From positions 35,935-99,934 of the forward strand of contig CAXSAX010000005.1 of the NCBI GenBank assembly GCA_964235495.1: a stretch of DNA of 64,000 bases, in the 5' to 3' direction. Below, in pieces: positions 36,479 to 60,853 of the stretch. How positions within the stretch are numbered: the first letter of the stretch is position 1; each line of letters opens with the position of its first letter. The stretch comes from an uncultured Acetobacteraceae bacterium (GTDB taxonomy: Bacteria; Pseudomonadota; Alphaproteobacteria; Acetobacterales; Acetobacteraceae). A program made the position numbers and the translations under genes. Under the pieces are notes generated by a model, which was not told the origin of the DNA, searched no databases, and saw only the letters and a list, made by a program, of their open reading frames with translations.

Positions 36479-36862
36479 TCAGTTTGCCGGCTGCAACGCG
36501 ATGGGGGGCGGGGCCGCGTCGTAGGTGAAGTCGGATTGCTTCACCGCATCCTCGACCACCGCCGCCGCGCCGCCGGCGAGCAGCCGGCCGAAGCCCACGC
36601 CTTTGTATTGCGCCGCGACCGAGCCGGTCGCGGTCTGCCACCCGGCCTTGCGGCAGGTGATCGTGAGGCTGGCCTCGCTGGGTTGCACGGTCACCTCACC
36701 AGGCGTCGGGTCAACGGCGCCGACCACCGCCGCGCCCTGCTGCACCGTGCAGCGGGCGCCCGCCGGGTCGCTGCGCACCGTGATCTGCTGCGGGCCTGGT
36801 TGGTCAGGTGAGCTGCACCCGGCGACGGCGCAGGCGAGCAGCAGGGGCCAGAAACTCTTCAT
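36479..36862 (-). CDS. Hypothetical lipoprotein (PEGA-like)
   Basis: Lipobox VAGC, then ITVRSDPAGARC...TPGEVTV...ITCRKAGW. Confidence 0.7.
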   Translation of the reverse strand: MKSFWPLLLACAVAGCSSPDQPGPQQITVRSDPAGARCTVQQGAAVVGAVDPTPGEVTVQPSEASLTITCRKAGWQTATGSVAAQYKGVGFGRLLAGGAAAVVEDAVKQSDFTYDAAPPPIALQPAN

Positions 36863-37083
36863 GCGGCCTCATAGGGATGGCGGTGGGAGCCGGGCCAGAG
36901 TGGTCCGCTTGGACGGCTGAGTCACTGGCCGAGCCGCCCACTGCGAGGCCGCCATGCCGGCAGGGTCACGGACCCGGTCGCCTGGTCGGCTGCCTGCGTC
37001 ACCCGCGATCGCCGTGGGCTCCTTGCTCCTTGCAGCGGCGTCCTGCGCTACCCGTCGGCCGCAAACCGTTGTAGGCCATCGCG

Positions 37084-37332
37084 ATGACCGATGTGCCGCC
37101 TGATCGCCTGTCCACCAACCCGGCCAGCCCGCACCACGACGCCGCTGCGCTCGAACGCGGCGTCGGCATCCGCCTGAACGGCGTGGAGAAGACCACCGTC
37201 GAGGAATACTGCGTCAGCGAGGGCTGGGTCCGCGTGTCAGTCGGCAAGACGCTCGACCGCCGCGGGAACCCGCTCACCATGAAGCTGAGCGGGACGGTGG
37301 AGCCGTACTATCGCGACGTAACGCCGACCTGA
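37084..37332 (+). CDS. DUF3297-like small protein
   Basis: PPDRLSTNP, GVGIRLNGVEKTTVEEYCVSEGWVRV, GTVEPYY (family recalled, not searched). Confidence 0.8.
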   Translation: MTDVPPDRLSTNPASPHHDAAALERGVGIRLNGVEKTTVEEYCVSEGWVRVSVGKTLDRRGNPLTMKLSGTVEPYYRDVTPT

Positions 37333-37447
37333 CGCTGCTGCAAGGCCCCAAGCCCTCGCAGACCCACCGCTATTGTCACTGAAAGTAAAGGTGACTTGCT
37401 GCCGGGTTATCGCCGAACCAACTCCCGTTCGGAAAGAGGTGGAACCC

Positions 37448-37741
37448 ATGGCGAAGATCGCACGGCTTCTTGGTATGGCTGGCTTGGTCCTGGCTCTCGG
37501 CAGCGTGCCGGCGCTCGCGCAGCGCGGCGGCTACGGCGGATTTAGGGGCTATGGCGGTTTTTACGGTCGCGGCTTTGGCGGCTACGGCTTCCGTGGCTTT
37601 GGCTACGGTTACGGCCCGGGTTTCTATGGCCACGGTTTCTATGGCCGGGGCTTCTACGGCCCCCGCTTCGCCTATGGATTCCCCTATGGCGGCTTTCCTG
37701 GCGGAGCGCCGTTCTTCTACGGCTACCCACGCTACTACTGA
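37448..37741 (+). CDS. Secreted Gly/Tyr/Phe-rich low-complexity protein, 97 aa
   Basis: SD AAGAGG. Signal peptide ends ALA-Q. Mature part is made of YGxGF-like repeats. Confidence 0.7.
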   Translation: MAKIARLLGMAGLVLALGSVPALAQRGGYGGFRGYGGFYGRGFGGYGFRGFGYGYGPGFYGHGFYGRGFYGPRFAYGFPYGGFPGGAPFFYGYPRYY

Positions 37742-37818
37742 CCCCCGCGCCACCACCGACCGCAGTGACGCGCTGCGCCCTCCGGTATAGCTTCGCCCGG
37801 CCATAACAGGAGGCGGCG

Positions 37819-39042
37819 GTGGACATGAAGATCGCGACGAGGCCGGAGCAAGTCGGCCTATCCTCCGAGCGCCTGGCGCGCATCGCGGGCTGGGCGCAGC
37901 GCCTGGTGGAGGATGGCAAGCTGGCCGGGATCACCACCGCGGTCATCCGGCATGGCCAGCTTGCCCACCTGCACAGCTGCGGCCTGGCGGACCGGGCTGC
38001 GGGCGCAGCGATGACGCCGGACACGATGGTGCGCATCTATTCCATGACCAAGCCGCTCACCAGCCTGGCCGTCCTGATGCTCTACGAGCAGGGCCTGTTC
38101 CAGTTGGATGACCCGGTCAGCCGCTTCCTGCCCGCCTTCACCGCCATGCGCGTGGTGTCCGGCGGCCAGCGCGGCAAGCTCGAAACCGTGCCCGCCCTGC
38201 GCGGCATCACCGTGCGCGACCTGCTGACCCACACCTCCGGCCTCACCTACGGCTTCTTGCAGTCCACCCTGGTGGACGAGGCGTATCGCGAGCAGGGCAT
38301 CGATTTCCAGACCGCCGAGTGCAGCCTGGGCGAGCTGGTGGAGCGGGCCGCCGCGCTGCCCCTGCTGGCGCAGCCGGGGGCGGAGTGGAATTACAGCATC
38401 GCCACCGACGTGCTGGGCCATTTGGTGGCCGTCCTGTCCGGCGAGCCGTTCGACGAGTTCCTGCGGCGCCGGGTCATCGAGCCGCTCGGCATGGTCGATA
38501 CCGGATTCCACGTGCCGGCGCAGAAGCACGCCCGGTTCGCCGCCAATTACGGCCGCGGCAAGGATGGCGGCCTGACGCTGCTGGACGACCCGGCCACCAG
38601 CCGCTTCCTCGCCCCGCCCGCGATCTGCTCCGGCGGCGGCGGCCTGGTCTCCACCGCCGGGGACTACCTGCGCTTCTGCCAGTTCATGCTGAACCGCGGC
38701 GAGCTGGACGGCATCCGGCTGCTCGGCCGCAAGACGGTGGCGCTGATGACGGCCAACCACCTGGGCGGCGACATGGCAGCCATGGGCATGCCGCGGTTCA
38801 GCGAGAGCAGCTATGAGGGCATCGGCTTCGGCCTCGGCTTCTCCGTCATGCTCGACCCGGCGCGGGCGCAGATCGTCGGCACGCCGGGCGAATATGCCTG
38901 GGGCGGGGCGGCGAGCACGGCCTTCTGGGTGGACCCGGCGGAGGACATGGCCGTCGTGCTGCTGACCCAGCTCATGCCGTCCACGGCCTACCCGATCCGC
39001 CGCGAGCTGCGCGTGCTGGCGTACGCGGCGATCACCGACTGA
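37819..39042 (+). CDS. Serine hydrolase, beta-lactamase-like esterase (family VIII type)
   Basis: RIYSMTKP (SxxK), LLTHTSG, WNYSIATD, SGGGGLVST, YAWGGAAST. Confidence 0.9.
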   Translation: MDMKIATRPEQVGLSSERLARIAGWAQRLVEDGKLAGITTAVIRHGQLAHLHSCGLADRAAGAAMTPDTMVRIYSMTKPLTSLAVLMLYEQGLFQLDDPVSRFLPAFTAMRVVSGGQRGKLETVPALRGITVRDLLTHTSGLTYGFLQSTLVDEAYREQGIDFQTAECSLGELVERAAALPLLAQPGAEWNYSIATDVLGHLVAVLSGEPFDEFLRRRVIEPLGMVDTGFHVPAQKHARFAANYGRGKDGGLTLLDDPATSRFLAPPAICSGGGGLVSTAGDYLRFCQFMLNRGELDGIRLLGRKTVALMTANHLGGDMAAMGMPRFSESSYEGIGFGLGFSVMLDPARAQIVGTPGEYAWGGAASTAFWVDPAEDMAVVLLTQLMPSTAYPIRRELRVLAYAAITD

Positions 39043-58454: not shown

Positions 58455-59246
58455 ATGTCCTCCGCCGCCGGGAAGCCCGAAGACACCATCAACGACACGC
58501 CTATGCCGCTCATGGCGCACCTGCTGGAGCTGCGCCGCCGGCTGATGTGGGCCGGGCTGTCGTTCTTCGTCTGCTTCGCGGTGTGCTACCATTTCTCGAC
58601 GCAGATCTACTCGTTCCTGGCGCAGCCGCTGGCCGACATCCTGCAATCCCGCTCCGGCCAGGACCGCCGGCTGATCTACACGGCGCTGTACGAGGCGTTC
58701 TTCACCTACCTGAAGGTGGCGCTGTTCGGCGGTGCGTTCCTGGCATTCCCGGTGATCGCGACGCAGCTCTACATGTTCGTGGCGCCGGGCCTGTACCGCA
58801 GCGAGAAGCGCGCCTTTCTGCCGTTCCTGATTGCGACGCCCGTGCTGTTCGTCATGGGCGCGGCGCTGGCGTATTATTTCGTGTTTCCCGTGGCCTGGCG
58901 CTTCTTTCTCTCGTTCGAGACGCCGAACGGCGCGGGCGGCCTGCCGATCGAGCTGCAAGCCAAGGTGGGCGAATACCTCGACCTGGTGATGAAGCTGATC
59001 TTCGCCTTCGGCATCGCCTTCCAGCTGCCGGTGCTGCTGACGCTGCTGGCCAAGGTCGGCATCGTGACGCAGGCCGGGCTGCGCAAGATGCGGCGTTACG
59101 CCTATGTCGGCATGTTCGTGGTCGCTGCGATCCTGACGCCGCCCGACGTGATCACCCAGTGCGGCTTGGCGCTGCCGCTGATCGCGCTCTACGAGGTCTC
59201 GATCATCGCGGCCGGGCTGGTGGCGAAGAAGCCGGTGGAGGCGTGA
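58455..59246 (+). CDS. tatC: Twin-arginine translocase subunit C
   Basis: MPLMAHLLELRRRL, FVAPGLYRSEK, FQLPV, ILTPPD. Confidence 0.96.
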   Translation: MSSAAGKPEDTINDTPMPLMAHLLELRRRLMWAGLSFFVCFAVCYHFSTQIYSFLAQPLADILQSRSGQDRRLIYTALYEAFFTYLKVALFGGAFLAFPVIATQLYMFVAPGLYRSEKRAFLPFLIATPVLFVMGAALAYYFVFPVAWRFFLSFETPNGAGGLPIELQAKVGEYLDLVMKLIFAFGIAFQLPVLLTLLAKVGIVTQAGLRKMRRYAYVGMFVVAAILTPPDVITQCGLALPLIALYEVSIIAAGLVAKKPVEA

Positions 59247-59251
59247 CGGGC

Positions 59252-59449
59252 TTAGTGCCCGATCGCGCGGAGGATGAGCGTGGCCACGCCGATGAGCGCG
59301 GCCATGACACCGGCCCCAGCACCGGCCGCAACAGCCATGGCTTTCCATGGCTCCCACCGAACTTGGGTTTCGAAGTGTCTGATCTGAATGGGCATAAGCT
59401 CCATCCTCATCTCGTGCTCTAAGAGTTCCTGGTCGGCACTCAGCGGCAT
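59252..59449 (-). CDS. Small membrane protein, 65 aa (RWE + TM helix family)
   Basis: MPLSADQELLEHEMRMELMPIQIRHFETQVRWEPWK followed by a ~25-aa hydrophobic stretch. Similar to 3957..4331. Confidence 0.7.
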   Translation of the reverse strand: MPLSADQELLEHEMRMELMPIQIRHFETQVRWEPWKAMAVAAGAGAGVMAALIGVATLILRAIGH

Positions 59450-59549
59450 GGTCTAAGATAACACATTGCCCACTAAGCTGCATTAGCGCTCGCCTTGACC
59501 AGGTGGTGCCGCCGGTTCAAACGCCTGACGCCGGTGCTGTTGCAACCCT

Positions 59550-59580
59550 GTGGATGACCGGGCCAAGCCCGGCCATGACG
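59550..59580. repeat. REP-like hairpin GTGGATGACCGGGCCAAGCCCGGCCATGACG (one arm only)
   Basis: Stem CCGGGC-CAA-GCCCGG. Resembles the GGATGGCCGGGnCAAGCCCGGCCATGACG repeat I recall from alphaproteobacterial genomes. Ends 10 bp before the serS ATG. Confidence 0.6.
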
Positions 59581-59590
59581 GTAGGGACTG

Positions 59591-60853
59591 ATGCAAGACA
59601 TCCGAGCTGTTCGCGACGATATCGATGCTTTTCGCGCGGCGATGAACCGGCGCTCAATCAGCATTGACGTTGAGGAAATAAGTCGTACTGACGCGAATCT
59701 GAGGCGAACCGTCACTGAGCTGGGCGGGTTGCAGGCTGAACGAAACGCTCATTCGAAGCTTGTCGGCGAGCAGCGCCGCAAGGGCCATGACACGCTGGCG
59801 CTTGAGGCAGGGGCAGTGGGCATCCGCGACCGGATATTGAGCTTGCAAGCCGCGGAACAGGGCTTCAGCGTGCATCTACAAAGCCTTTTAGCCAGCCTCC
59901 CCAACATCCTCGACCCCGACGTGCCGGACGGCGCCGACGAGTCCGCCAACCTCGTCGTCAAGCAGCACGGCGAGCCGGCCGCCCTCACTGCCGCCCGCCA
60001 GCACTTCGAGCTCGGCGAGGCCCTCGGCCTGATGGACTTCGCCGCCGCCGCCAAGATCGCCGGCTCCCGTTTCACCGTGCTGCGCGGCGGCCTCGCCCGC
60101 ATGGAGCGCGCCCTCGGCCAGTGGATGCTCGACCTGCACACGGCCGAGCACGGCTACGAGGAGGTCGCCGTCCCGCTGCTGGTGAACGAGGCCACGGCCT
60201 ACGGCTCCAACCAGCTGCCCAAGTTCGCCGAGGACATGTTCCAGACCAAAGACGGCCGTTGGCTCATCCCCACCGCCGAGGTGCCGCTCACCAACCTGGC
60301 CGCCGGCGAGATCATCCCCGAGGCCCGCCTGCCGCTGCGCATGGCCGCGCTCACCGACTGCTTCCGCTCGGAGGCCGGGTCGGCCGGGCGGGACACCCGG
60401 GGGATGCTGCGCCAGCACCAGTTCCGCAAGGTCGAGCTGGTCTCCATCACCCGACCGGGAGACAGCGACGCCGAGCACGAGCGCATGACGCGCTGCGCCG
60501 AGACGGTGCTGGAGCGGCTGGGCATCCCGTACCGCCGGATGCTGCTCTGCGCCGGGGACACCGGGTTCGGCGCCGCCAAGACCTTCGACCTGGAGGTCTG
60601 GCTGCCGGGGCAGGGGGCCTGGCGGGAGATCAGCTCCTGCTCCAACACCCGCGCCTTCCAGGCCCGCCGCATGAACGCGCGCTGGCGCCCGGCGGAGGGC
60701 AAGCCCGAGTTTGTCCACACCCTCAACGGCTCCGGCGTCGCGGTCGGCCGGGCGCTCATCGCGGTGATGGAAACCTGCCAGCAGCCGGACGGCTCAATCA
60801 CCGTGCCGGACGTGCTGCGCCCCTACATGGCCGGGCAGGAGCGCATCGGCTGA
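59591..60853 (+). CDS. serS: Serine--tRNA ligase
   Basis: [58 protein letters not shown]. Confidence 0.98.

What the first reader, a model, noticed from the sequence alone, without database searches (positions are those of the whole stretch)
59591..59890. Mosaic serS: the first 100 codons have foreign codon usage with a sharp breakpoint
Seen: about 37 of the first 100 codons end in A/T (CGA, ATA, CTA, TTA and others; about 58% GC). Only about 2 of the next 60 codons do. The switch falls at ~59890 (HLQSLL|[12 protein letters not shown]). Established: this stretch is the N-terminal coiled-coil tRNA-binding arm of SerRS, upstream of the catalytic domain, and 100 codons is much longer than a normal 5' codon ramp. 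Inference: the ~640-bp patch 59250..59890 (small gene, promoter, REP-like arm and serS 5' end) arrived together and replaced the native 5' end of an essential gene, either by recombination or by an element supplying a substitute N-terminus.
Basis: partly seen in the sequence, partly recalled or inferred. Interest (0 to 1): 0.65.

Follow-up and report, generated by a model that had tools for sequence, protein, structure and literature searches.

The report
Swapped hypervariable arm of serS
The first 100 codons of this bacterium's essential seryl-tRNA synthetase gene, plus a tiny neighbouring gene, form a 644-bp low-GC cassette that is almost unalignable between relatives whose flanking genes are about 95% identical and that recombination has shuffled among them; it is a real mosaic, but part of a genus-wide hot spot, not a one-off foreign insertion.

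Summary
In serS (59591..60853), 37 of codons 1-100 end in A/T, against 2 of the next 60 and 9 of the remaining 320. The maximum-likelihood change point is codon 100.

The mosaic is real but not private. In this Acidisphaera-like genus, 16 loci from three clades carry their own low-GC3 N-terminal arm (GC3 0.41-0.78 against 0.84-0.97). Nearly all of them have the 65-codon small gene between tatC and serS. Fifteen other genus members and 66 of 68 other alphaproteobacterial serS genes show no such drop.

Among the closest relatives, synonymous differences are saturated in the arm (pS about 0.75) but only 0.1-0.3 in tatC, the catalytic part and tetR. The arm tree and the catalytic-domain tree conflict significantly. 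Small gene, spacer and arm travel as one unit (block 59249-59894).

No closer arm exists anywhere: the best match among 1.8 billion proteins is 47% identical and genus-like. No displaced 5' fragment and no integrase were found. The tRNA-Ser genes are identical across arm types.

Best reading: allelic cassettes are exchanged by homologous recombination at a tatC/serS insertion hot spot. Why the arms diverge so fast and drift towards AT remains unexplained.

The parts
58455..59246 (+). tatC, the conserved 5' flank; its 3' end is the likely upstream crossover zone
   Evidence: ORF. It is 99.6% aa identical to L002, with pS 0.11. The last 300 nt are 94-97% identical to the close relatives whose loci reach into tatC (L002, L023, L125), right up to the stop codon.
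59247..59890 (.). 644-bp hypervariable low-GC cassette: small gene, divergent spacer and serS codons 1-100
   Evidence: GC is 0.599. Two-state segmentation against L128 gives 59249-59894, and against L002 gives 59264-59996. In 37.5 kb aligned with the nearest genome, it is the only long low-identity stretch inside a housekeeping gene.
59252..59449 (-). 65-codon gene for a small protein with a hydrophobic glycine-zipper-like C-terminus; part of the cassette
   Evidence: The ORF is conserved upstream of serS in L001, L002, L006, L010, L015, L019, L021, L023, L125, L126, L128 and L131, and is a pseudogene in L013. Against L002, pS is 0.76 and pN 0.10, which indicates purifying selection on an old allele. 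GC3 is 0.75. There is no Pfam hit above threshold and no PHROG hit.
59450..59590 (.). Divergent spacer with a conserved CGCCTTGACC block and a REP-like hairpin (about 59550-59580) just before the serS start
   Evidence: It is 70-84% identical to clade relatives, with conserved blocks. Copies of the hairpin occur on other contigs of this genome. No consensus sigma-70 promoter or terminator was found by the simple scan.
59591..59890 (+). serS codons 1-100: N-terminal coiled-coil tRNA-binding arm, in a low-GC3 hypervariable allele
   Evidence: GC3 is 0.63. It gives a full-length match to Pfam PF02403 Seryl_tRNA_N at 55-60 bits, against a cutoff of 28. AlphaFold2 predicts helices 27-63 and 69-101 at pLDDT 82-92. 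It is 32-47% aa identical to the other genus arms in the representative genomes and 50-63% to the same-type arms on contigs L124 and L125, while the catalytic part is 85-96% identical.
59891..60853 (+). serS codons 101-420: catalytic class II core with native codon usage
   Evidence: GC3 is 0.97. It matches PF00587. It is 94-96% aa identical to L002 and L124, with pS 0.13-0.19. The conserved [13 protein letters not shown]-coding stretch is where identity resumes.

Best explanation
The tatC-serS junction of this Acidisphaera-like genus is a gene-insertion and recombination hot spot. Three adjacent elements form one short cassette: the 65-codon small gene, the divergent spacer, and the first ~100 codons of serS, which encode the tRNA-binding coiled-coil arm. 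The cassette exists as many deeply diverged, functional alleles.

Alleles are moved between closely related lineages by double homologous recombination. One crossover lies in the conserved 3' end of tatC. The other lies where serS becomes strongly conserved, at the [13 protein letters not shown]-coding stretch at codon 100, or about 40 codons further on in some lineages.

This window carries one such allele (type 1, shared with metagenome contigs L125 and L124) on a catalytic-domain background nearest to L124 and L002.

Shown: the mosaic structure, the block boundaries, saturated synonymous divergence in the cassette, the incongruent histories, purifying selection on the arm and the small protein, and the genus-internal origin of the arms.

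Inferred: the low GC3 arose because these alleles evolved fast under AT-biased mutation, outside whatever keeps GC3 near 0.95 elsewhere. One candidate is that they are too divergent to take part in GC-biased gene conversion.
For: 1. Composition step: GC3 0.63 against 0.97 with the change point at codon 100.
2. The pattern recurs in the genus. Sixteen loci have an arm GC3 deficit of at least 0.11 (median 0.23), against at most 0.10 in 15 normal-arm loci. Sixty-six of 68 outgroup serS genes show no step.
3. Synonymous divergence between L001 and L002: tatC 0.11, small gene 0.76, arm 0.75, codons 101-140 0.52, catalytic part 0.19, tetR 0.21.
4. In clade A, 20 of 21 pairs have arm pS 0.69-0.91 against catalytic pS 0.13-0.30. 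The single exception is L002-L128, where the arm (0.14) is younger than the catalytic part (0.23). The distribution is therefore bimodal, as expected for discrete allele replacement.
5. The trees conflict in both directions under AU tests.
6. The cassette co-varies as a unit between L001 and L125.
7. The arm is a bona fide, folded SerRS N-domain under purifying selection.
8. The tatC-serS gap holds different cargo in different genomes: the small gene, a ParE-like toxin-antitoxin pair, a solute-binding-protein gene, or a desaturase-like gene. This matches hot spots that diversify by recombination at flanking core genes (PMC5635113, read).
Against: Even within cassette type 1, the arm is far more diverged than the adjacent small gene and spacer: 65% nt and pS 0.74, against 90% and 84%. 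Unit exchange alone therefore does not explain the arm; an arm-specific acceleration or finer-scale mosaicism is also needed.

Relative-rate tests indicate faster arm evolution since the genus ancestor, but they are significant only with one of the two outgroups.

The groups for the AU tests were chosen after the trees had been seen.

The cause of the low GC3 was not tested. Bacterial gBGC links recombination to higher GC (PMC4450053), and this locus clearly does recombine.

Confidence: 0.6

Rival explanations
1. In-situ local hyper-evolution. The arm was inherited vertically, but in small-gene-bearing lineages it undergoes locally elevated, AT-biased mutation or relaxed constraint, for example linked to the divergent promoter. 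This would erase similarity and lower GC3 without any transfer.
For: Apart from the same-type contigs L125 and L124, the nearest relatives of the L001 arm anywhere are genus-type arms at 43-47% identity. Arms of other families are only 28-34% identical. Low-GC3 arms are further from outgroups than normal arms are (29-35% against 38-45%); Tajima tests give p 0.0002-0.07 with outgroup L026. GC3 deficit correlates with distance from the consensus arm (rho -0.77). Within one cassette type the arm is much more diverged than the small gene beside it.
Against: Arm and catalytic trees are significantly incongruent. Arm pS is bimodal, either 0.14 or about 0.75, and does not scale with catalytic pS. L010 and L015 share an arm type whose pS (0.43) equals that of their flanks (0.47-0.6) despite GC3 of 0.56-0.66, so low-GC3 arms are not continuously hypermutating. 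The divergent block has sharp edges, and its 5' edge sits at the tatC stop codon.
Confidence: 0.2
2. Remnant of an integrative element that targets the 5' part of serS and carries its own replacement N-terminus, as phage 21 and e14 do for the 3' end of icd in E. coli. The small gene would be its cargo.
For: The junction is sharp and lies at a highly conserved nucleotide stretch. Low-GC cargo typical of mobile elements lies next to the arm: the small gene here and a ParE-like toxin-antitoxin pair in L127.
Against: No displaced native arm fragment exists in this genome or in any of the 25 genus genomes searched with a consensus arm. There is no integrase or other element gene in the 347 bp between tatC and serS. 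The 3' junction differs between lineages: codon 100 in L001 and L019, and about 136-149 in L023 and L002. Neither the small protein nor the arm has a close phage match. The only phage-collection hits are Ralstonia prophage records that overshoot into the host's complete serS.
Confidence: 0.07
3. Horizontal import of the 5' end from a distant, lower-GC taxon.
For: The arm's GC3 of 0.63 and its A/T-ending rare codons look foreign in a genome with GC3 of 0.92.
Against: An exhaustive HMMER search of 1.84 billion representatives with the arm alone found nothing above 47% identity, and the top full-length hit is a genus-type SerRS. The word-indexed search of 5.8 billion proteins and the scan of 185,579 species genomes found no close arm. 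The arm keeps genus-specific motifs such as RR.G.DT..LEA. Its closest relatives, L125 and L124, sit on Acidisphaera-type catalytic domains.
Confidence: 0.05
4. Metagenome assembly chimera. The assembler switched between co-occurring strains at the conserved tatC end and at the conserved codon-100 stretch.
For: The genome has 72 contigs. Two sister MAGs (G020, G022) have serS cut at contig ends, with no arm assembled. Several related arm types come from samples with neighbouring assembly accessions.
Against: The same mosaic occurs in single-contig complete genomes: G023/L006 and G024/L015, with arm GC3 of 0.76 and 0.56. Both flanks of the patch belong to the same lineage. Even if the join were chimeric, the allele and the phenomenon would still be real.
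Confidence: 0.08

Closest known systems
Chromosomal hot spots of gene turnover that diversify by double homologous recombination in the flanking core genes (Oliveira et al. 2017, PMC5635113)
   Same: The same pair of core genes (tatC, serS) brackets different accessory cargo in different genomes. No integrase or recognisable mobile element is present. The flanking core gene shows phylogenetic incongruence and excess diversity.
   Different: Here the recombining unit reaches 300 bp into an essential gene and replaces a whole functional domain. The replaced part is saturated at synonymous sites and depleted in GC3. That is far beyond the modest excess diversity described for hot-spot flanks.
Mosaic housekeeping or target genes made by recombination between related species, such as mosaic penA/pbp genes and gnd hitch-hiking beside the rfb O-antigen locus in E. 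coli (from my own knowledge)
   Same: Blocks of sharply higher divergence with discrete breakpoints lie inside an otherwise conserved gene, and the block and the rest of the gene have different trees.
   Different: No known selective agent acts on the SerRS arm. The donors are unsampled alleles of the same genus rather than a named sister species. Many lineages each carry a different allele.
Phage 21 / e14 integration into icd of E. coli, where the element carries a substitute gene end (from my own knowledge)
   Same: An essential or central gene has one end with atypical codon usage and a sharp junction, and accessory genes lie next to it.
   Different: Integrase, a displaced native fragment and a fixed attachment junction were all looked for and not found.
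Domain-level allelic series in conserved frameworks, such as the hypervariable central domain of flagellin fliC and the target-recognition domains of hsdS (from my own knowledge)
   Same: There is a conserved scaffold with one domain present as many deeply diverged, often lower-GC alleles that are exchanged by recombination at conserved borders.
   Different: Those domains face phages, immune systems or DNA targets. The SerRS arm is cytoplasmic and binds tRNA-Ser, whose genes are 99-100% identical across the arm types.
GC-biased gene conversion in bacteria (Lassalle et al. 2015, PMC4450053)
   Same: It offers a neutral reason why a segment that leaves the normal recombination regime would lose GC3 in a GC-rich genome.
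   Different: It was not tested here. The locus does recombine as a unit, so the argument needs conversion within the arm to be blocked by divergence.

Membership tests
Bacterial seryl-tRNA synthetase (SerRS) | N-terminal Seryl_tRNA_N coiled-coil domain (PF02403) | tested here: met
   Residues 1-106 match profile positions 1-107 of 108 at 55-60 bits, against a cutoff of 28.2. A helical hairpin at 27-63 and 69-101 is predicted at pLDDT 82-92.
Bacterial seryl-tRNA synthetase (SerRS) | Class II catalytic core (PF00587), single copy in the genome | tested here: met
   PF00587 scores 125.9 bits. There is only one serS locus in the 3.33-Mb assembly.
Gene-turnover hot spot with recombination at flanking core genes | Different accessory genes between the same two core genes in related genomes | tested here: met
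   The tatC-serS gap is 56-222 bp when empty. It holds the small gene in about 12 loci, a ParE-like pair in L127, a solute-binding-protein gene in G019 and a desaturase-like gene in G015.
Gene-turnover hot spot with recombination at flanking core genes | Phylogenetic incongruence or recombination in the flanking core gene | tested here: met
   AU tests: the arm data reject {L001, L002, L124} at p 1.4e-5. The catalytic data reject {L001, L124, L125} at p 0.0035 and {L010, L015} at p 7e-8. The groups were named after the trees had been seen.
Integrative element carrying a substitute gene end (phage 21 / e14-icd type) | Displaced native gene fragment left at the other end of the element | tested here: not met
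   tblastn with the window's own arm found no second copy in this genome. A search of the 25 genus genomes with a consensus arm found only weak coiled-coil hits.
Integrative element carrying a substitute gene end (phage 21 / e14-icd type) | Site-specific recombinase and a fixed attachment junction | tested here: not met
   Only the 65-codon ORF lies between tatC and serS. The junction is at codon 100 in L001 and L019, but at about 136-149 in L023 and L002.
Diversity-generating retroelement target | A near-identical template repeat and a reverse transcriptase nearby | tested here: not met
   blastn of the patch against the whole genome finds only short REP-like matches to the spacer and no second copy of the arm. 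Reverse transcriptase was not searched for separately.
5' codon ramp / translation-initiation AT enrichment | Short (tens of codons) and shared by orthologues whatever the context | tested here: not met
   The step is at codon 100. It is absent from 15 genus members and from 66 of 68 outgroup serS genes.

The most novel reading that the evidence does not exclude
The tRNA-binding arm of an essential aminoacyl-tRNA synthetase is kept as a long-lived, horizontally exchanged allelic series. The cause would be an antagonist that recognises it, such as a phage or toxin protein that docks on the SerRS arm, possibly linked to the co-inherited small membrane protein. This would be frequency-dependent diversification of a housekeeping enzyme domain while its tRNA substrates stay identical. 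A neutral variant of the same reading is that the locus is a natural experiment showing GC3 decay once a segment becomes too divergent for gene conversion.
Probability: 0.12. Interest if true: 0.8.

Novelty: new variant of a known kind. Interest (0 to 1): 0.5.

Why it matters
Aminoacyl-tRNA synthetases are treated as stable vertical markers, and serS is used in core-gene phylogenies. Here one whole functional domain of an essential, single-copy synthetase is 30-60% identical between genomes whose flanking genes are about 95% identical at the nucleotide level. Its history differs from that of the rest of the gene, and its codon usage is atypical enough that gene callers drop it and start the protein 75-82 codons late.

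This has practical consequences for annotation, for marker-gene trees and for MAG assembly, because contigs break at this locus.

It also poses a clean question: what drives rapid, AT-biased divergence of a tRNA-binding arm when the tRNA-Ser genes do not change? The many natural alleles form a ready-made panel for studying how much sequence freedom the SerRS arm has.

Tried and rejected
- Displaced native 5' fragment: none in this genome (tblastn and blastn) and none in the 25 genus genomes.
- Distant donor: three searches found nothing close. The word-indexed search with region 1-100 gave no hit; the window's own protein is stored as a 345-aa truncated call. Exhaustive HMMER gave at best 47% identity. 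The genome-contig scan gave at best 41%.
- Phage link: 88 tblastn hits to the arm turned out to be Ralstonia inovirus prophage records that include the host's complete serS next to the integration site. The small protein has no match in the phage collection or in PHROGs.
- JGI metagenome scan with the catalytic domain: it returned only relatives at 63-78% identity. These served as a GC3 baseline but not as clade members.
- My first genome-wide change-point ranking was dominated by stop-to-stop ORFs that start too early. I use it only for the distribution of windows.
- tRNA co-evolution: rejected, because tRNA-Ser(GGA) and tRNA-Ser(GCU) are 99-100% identical across arm types.
- Simple promoter and terminator scan of 59200-59700: nothing found.
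- The single-sequence AlphaFold model is poor outside the arm (mean pLDDT 41.6). I use it only for the arm helices.
- Literature search for mosaic bacterial serS found nothing relevant.

Full report

serS occupies 59591..60853 on the + strand and has 420 codons. Thirty-seven of the first 100 codons end in A/T, including CGA, ATA, CTA and TTA. Only 2 of the next 60 do, and 9 of the remaining 320. GC3 is 0.63 against 0.97, and a maximum-likelihood change point falls at codon 100, exactly at HLQSLL|[12 protein letters not shown].

Across this 3.33-Mb, 72-contig genome, 100-codon windows average GC3 0.916 (sd 0.07), and fewer than 1% are as low as 0.63. The patch 59247-59890 is 59.9% GC in a 71.4% GC window.

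The N-terminal domain of SerRS is not normally like this. In 68 serS genes from other alphaproteobacterial metagenome contigs, arm and catalytic GC3 differ by 0.10 or less in 66.

**The arm is a working SerRS domain**

- Residues 1-106 match Pfam Seryl_tRNA_N end to end, at 55-60 bits against a cutoff of 28.
- A single-sequence AlphaFold2 model is poor overall, but it predicts two long helices (27-63 and 69-101) at pLDDT 82-92, the expected coiled-coil hairpin.
- The frame is open in every divergent arm examined.
- Within arm types, pN is well below pS.
- There is only one serS in the genome.
- The public gene call for this protein starts at an internal GTG and is 345 aa. Two relatives are likewise called at 338 and 340 aa, apparently because of the atypical codons.

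**Relatives change the picture**

A source name on one genus protein (Acidisphaera sp. L21) places the genus in or near Acidisphaera, family Acetobacteraceae. All 25 species genomes have serS.

The nearest genomes are about 93-95% identical in nucleotides across tatC, the catalytic part of serS and tetR. Their tatC proteins are 96-99.6% identical. Yet each has its own arm:

- Arm aa identity to L001 is 41% (L002), 34% (L023) and 32% (L019), while the catalytic part is 88-94% identical.
- These arms are also low in GC3 (0.71, 0.41 and 0.65).
- With contigs recovered through the protein database (L124-L131), 16 loci have an arm GC3 deficit of at least 0.11 (median 0.23). Fifteen genus loci with consensus-type arms have at most 0.10.
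- Almost all low-GC3 arms sit next to the 65-codon minus-strand gene between tatC and serS.
- Exceptions: L130 has lost that gene. L127 has a ParE-like toxin-antitoxin pair in its place. L124 and L129 are cut too close to serS to tell. L013 has a pseudogenised copy and a normal arm.

So the small gene, the spacer and the REP-like hairpin are shared features of the clade, not a private insert.

**Divergence is a matter of age or rate, not relaxed protein constraint**

Nei-Gojobori proportions for L001 against L002:

| Segment | pS | pN |
|---|---|---|
| tatC | 0.11 | 0.00 |
| small gene | 0.76 | 0.10 |
| arm (codons 1-100) | 0.75 | 0.43 |
| codons 101-140 | 0.52 | 0.07 |
| rest of serS | 0.19 | 0.02 |
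| tetR | 0.21 | 0.03 |

In the clade of seven closest loci, 20 of 21 pairs have arm pS of 0.69-0.91 against catalytic pS of 0.13-0.30. The only exception, L002-L128, has an arm (0.14) younger than its catalytic part (0.23). This bimodality, together with the L010-L015 pair whose shared low-GC3 arm has the same pS as its flanks, argues for discrete replacement of alleles and against steady local hypermutation.

The block edges are sharp. Divergence starts right after the tatC stop codon, and identity resumes at GCCAGCCT...CCCAACATCCTCGACCCCGAC. Segmentation against L128 gives 59249-59894, with identity 0.62 inside and 0.94 outside. In L002 and L023 the block runs about 40-50 codons further.

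In 37.5 kb aligned with the nearest genome, this is the only long low-identity stretch inside a housekeeping gene. The others are intergenic or short.

**The histories differ**

A nucleotide tree of the catalytic part places L001 with L124 and L002 (98/95), and places L125 with L023 (99/97). The arm tree groups L001 with L125 and L124 (96/95), L002 with L128 (100/100), and L010 with L015 (99/94).

AU tests reject the other partition's groups in both directions:

- Arm data reject {L001, L002, L124} at p 1.4e-5.
- Catalytic data reject {L001, L124, L125} at p 0.0035.
- Catalytic data reject {L010, L015} at p 7e-8.
- Catalytic data reject {L002, L128} at p 0.041.

The groups were picked after the trees had been seen.

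The cassette moves as a unit. L125 is the closest to L001 in the small gene (90% nt), the spacer (84%) and the arm (63% aa), but not in the catalytic domain, where it is 88% nt against 94% for L124, L002 and L128.

**The arm does not come from a distant donor**

- Exhaustive HMMER against 1.84 billion representative proteins gives at best 47% identity. That hit has a genus-type arm on a genus-type catalytic domain.
- The word-indexed search and the species-genome scan found nothing closer.
- L001's arm is nearer to the genus consensus (43-47%) than to arms of other families (28-34%).
- Low-GC3 arms are consistently further from outgroups than normal arms are. Relative-rate tests are significant with one outgroup and not with the other.

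The alleles therefore arose within this lineage and evolved faster than ordinary arms. Even inside cassette type 1, the arm is much more diverged than the neighbouring small gene: only 28 of 61 identical amino acids use the same codon, against 229 of 272 in the rest of serS. I cannot explain this arm-specific excess.

**Alternatives tested**

- An element-supplied N-terminus of the phage 21 / e14-icd type lacks its defining marks. There is no displaced fragment in any of the 25 genomes, no recombinase in the 347-bp gap, and no fixed junction.
- Phage hits to the arm were host serS genes inside over-extended Ralstonia prophage records.
- Co-evolution with the substrate is excluded for two isoacceptors. 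tRNA-Ser(GGA) and tRNA-Ser(GCU) genes are 99-100% identical in genomes with radically different arms and in genomes with normal arms.
However, the same mosaic exists in complete single-contig genomes.

**Context and comparison**

The tatC-serS gap carries different cargo in different species: nothing, the small gene, a toxin-antitoxin pair, a solute-binding-protein gene, or a desaturase-like gene. This fits the described class of integrase-free hot spots that diversify by double homologous recombination in flanking core genes, which show excess recombination and incongruence (PMC5635113).

What is unusual here is that the exchanged unit reaches 300 bp into an essential gene, replaces a whole functional domain, is saturated at synonymous sites and has lost GC3.

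One candidate neutral cause for the GC3 loss is escape from GC-biased gene conversion once alleles are too divergent to convert (PMC4450053). I did not test this.

**Verdict**

The ideas of a foreign donor, a private insert and an element-borne substitute end are not. I rate this a new variant of a known kind, of moderate interest.

Noticed in passing
window 59591-59815, and proteins P0151, P0154 and P0186: Public gene calls start serS 75-82 codons late, at an internal GTG or ATG, giving proteins of 345, 338 and 340 aa that lack the PF02403 domain. The atypical codon usage of the arm is the apparent cause.
   Followed up: partly
G020:C167:6815-7156 and G022:C160:6-602: In two sister MAGs serS is cut by contig ends, and no arm is assembled anywhere in those genomes. 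This fits assembly or binning failure at the hypervariable low-GC patch.
   Followed up: partly
L127:2361-2986 (minus strand): A ParE/RelE-like 98-aa ORF and an overlapping 110-aa upstream ORF, a putative toxin-antitoxin pair, replace the small gene between tatC and serS. They end 9-15 bp from the serS start. The identification rests on reading the sequence only.
   Followed up: no
L019, between tatC and the small gene (equivalent to about window 59250): There is an extra insertion of about 540 bp in G011 at the tatC / small-gene boundary. Its content was not examined.
   Followed up: no
window 59741-59773 (serS codons 51-61): A 33-nt stretch (CGA AAC .CT CA. TCG AAG CTT GTC GGC GAG CAG) is nearly identical between L001 and L125, synonymous sites included, inside an arm that is otherwise about 60% identical. 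It could be fine-scale mosaicism or a constraint at the nucleotide level.
   Followed up: no
window 36837-37822: This is the longest other low-identity stretch against the nearest genome (G014). It is intergenic, upstream of a beta-lactamase-family-like ORF at 37819-39042.
   Followed up: partly
window 59550-59589, and proteins P0174 and P0184: The REP-like hairpin before the serS start is conserved in relatives. In some public gene calls it is translated as an N-terminal extension (MAGSSPAMTVVC...), including in genomes with normal arms. It therefore belongs to the leader and is not a marker of the patch.
   Followed up: partly
genome contig C9:16071-16152: ARAGORN calls an 82-nt 'tRNA-Ser(gct)' in very GC-rich repetitive sequence. 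It looks like a false positive. The four other tRNA-Ser genes look normal.
   Followed up: no
L123 (ON170125.1) 1120-2436: Ralstonia 'phage' records of the YO0xx_2 series are prophage calls that include the host's full serS and adjacent genes, so phage-collection hits to SerRS there are host DNA.
   Followed up: yes
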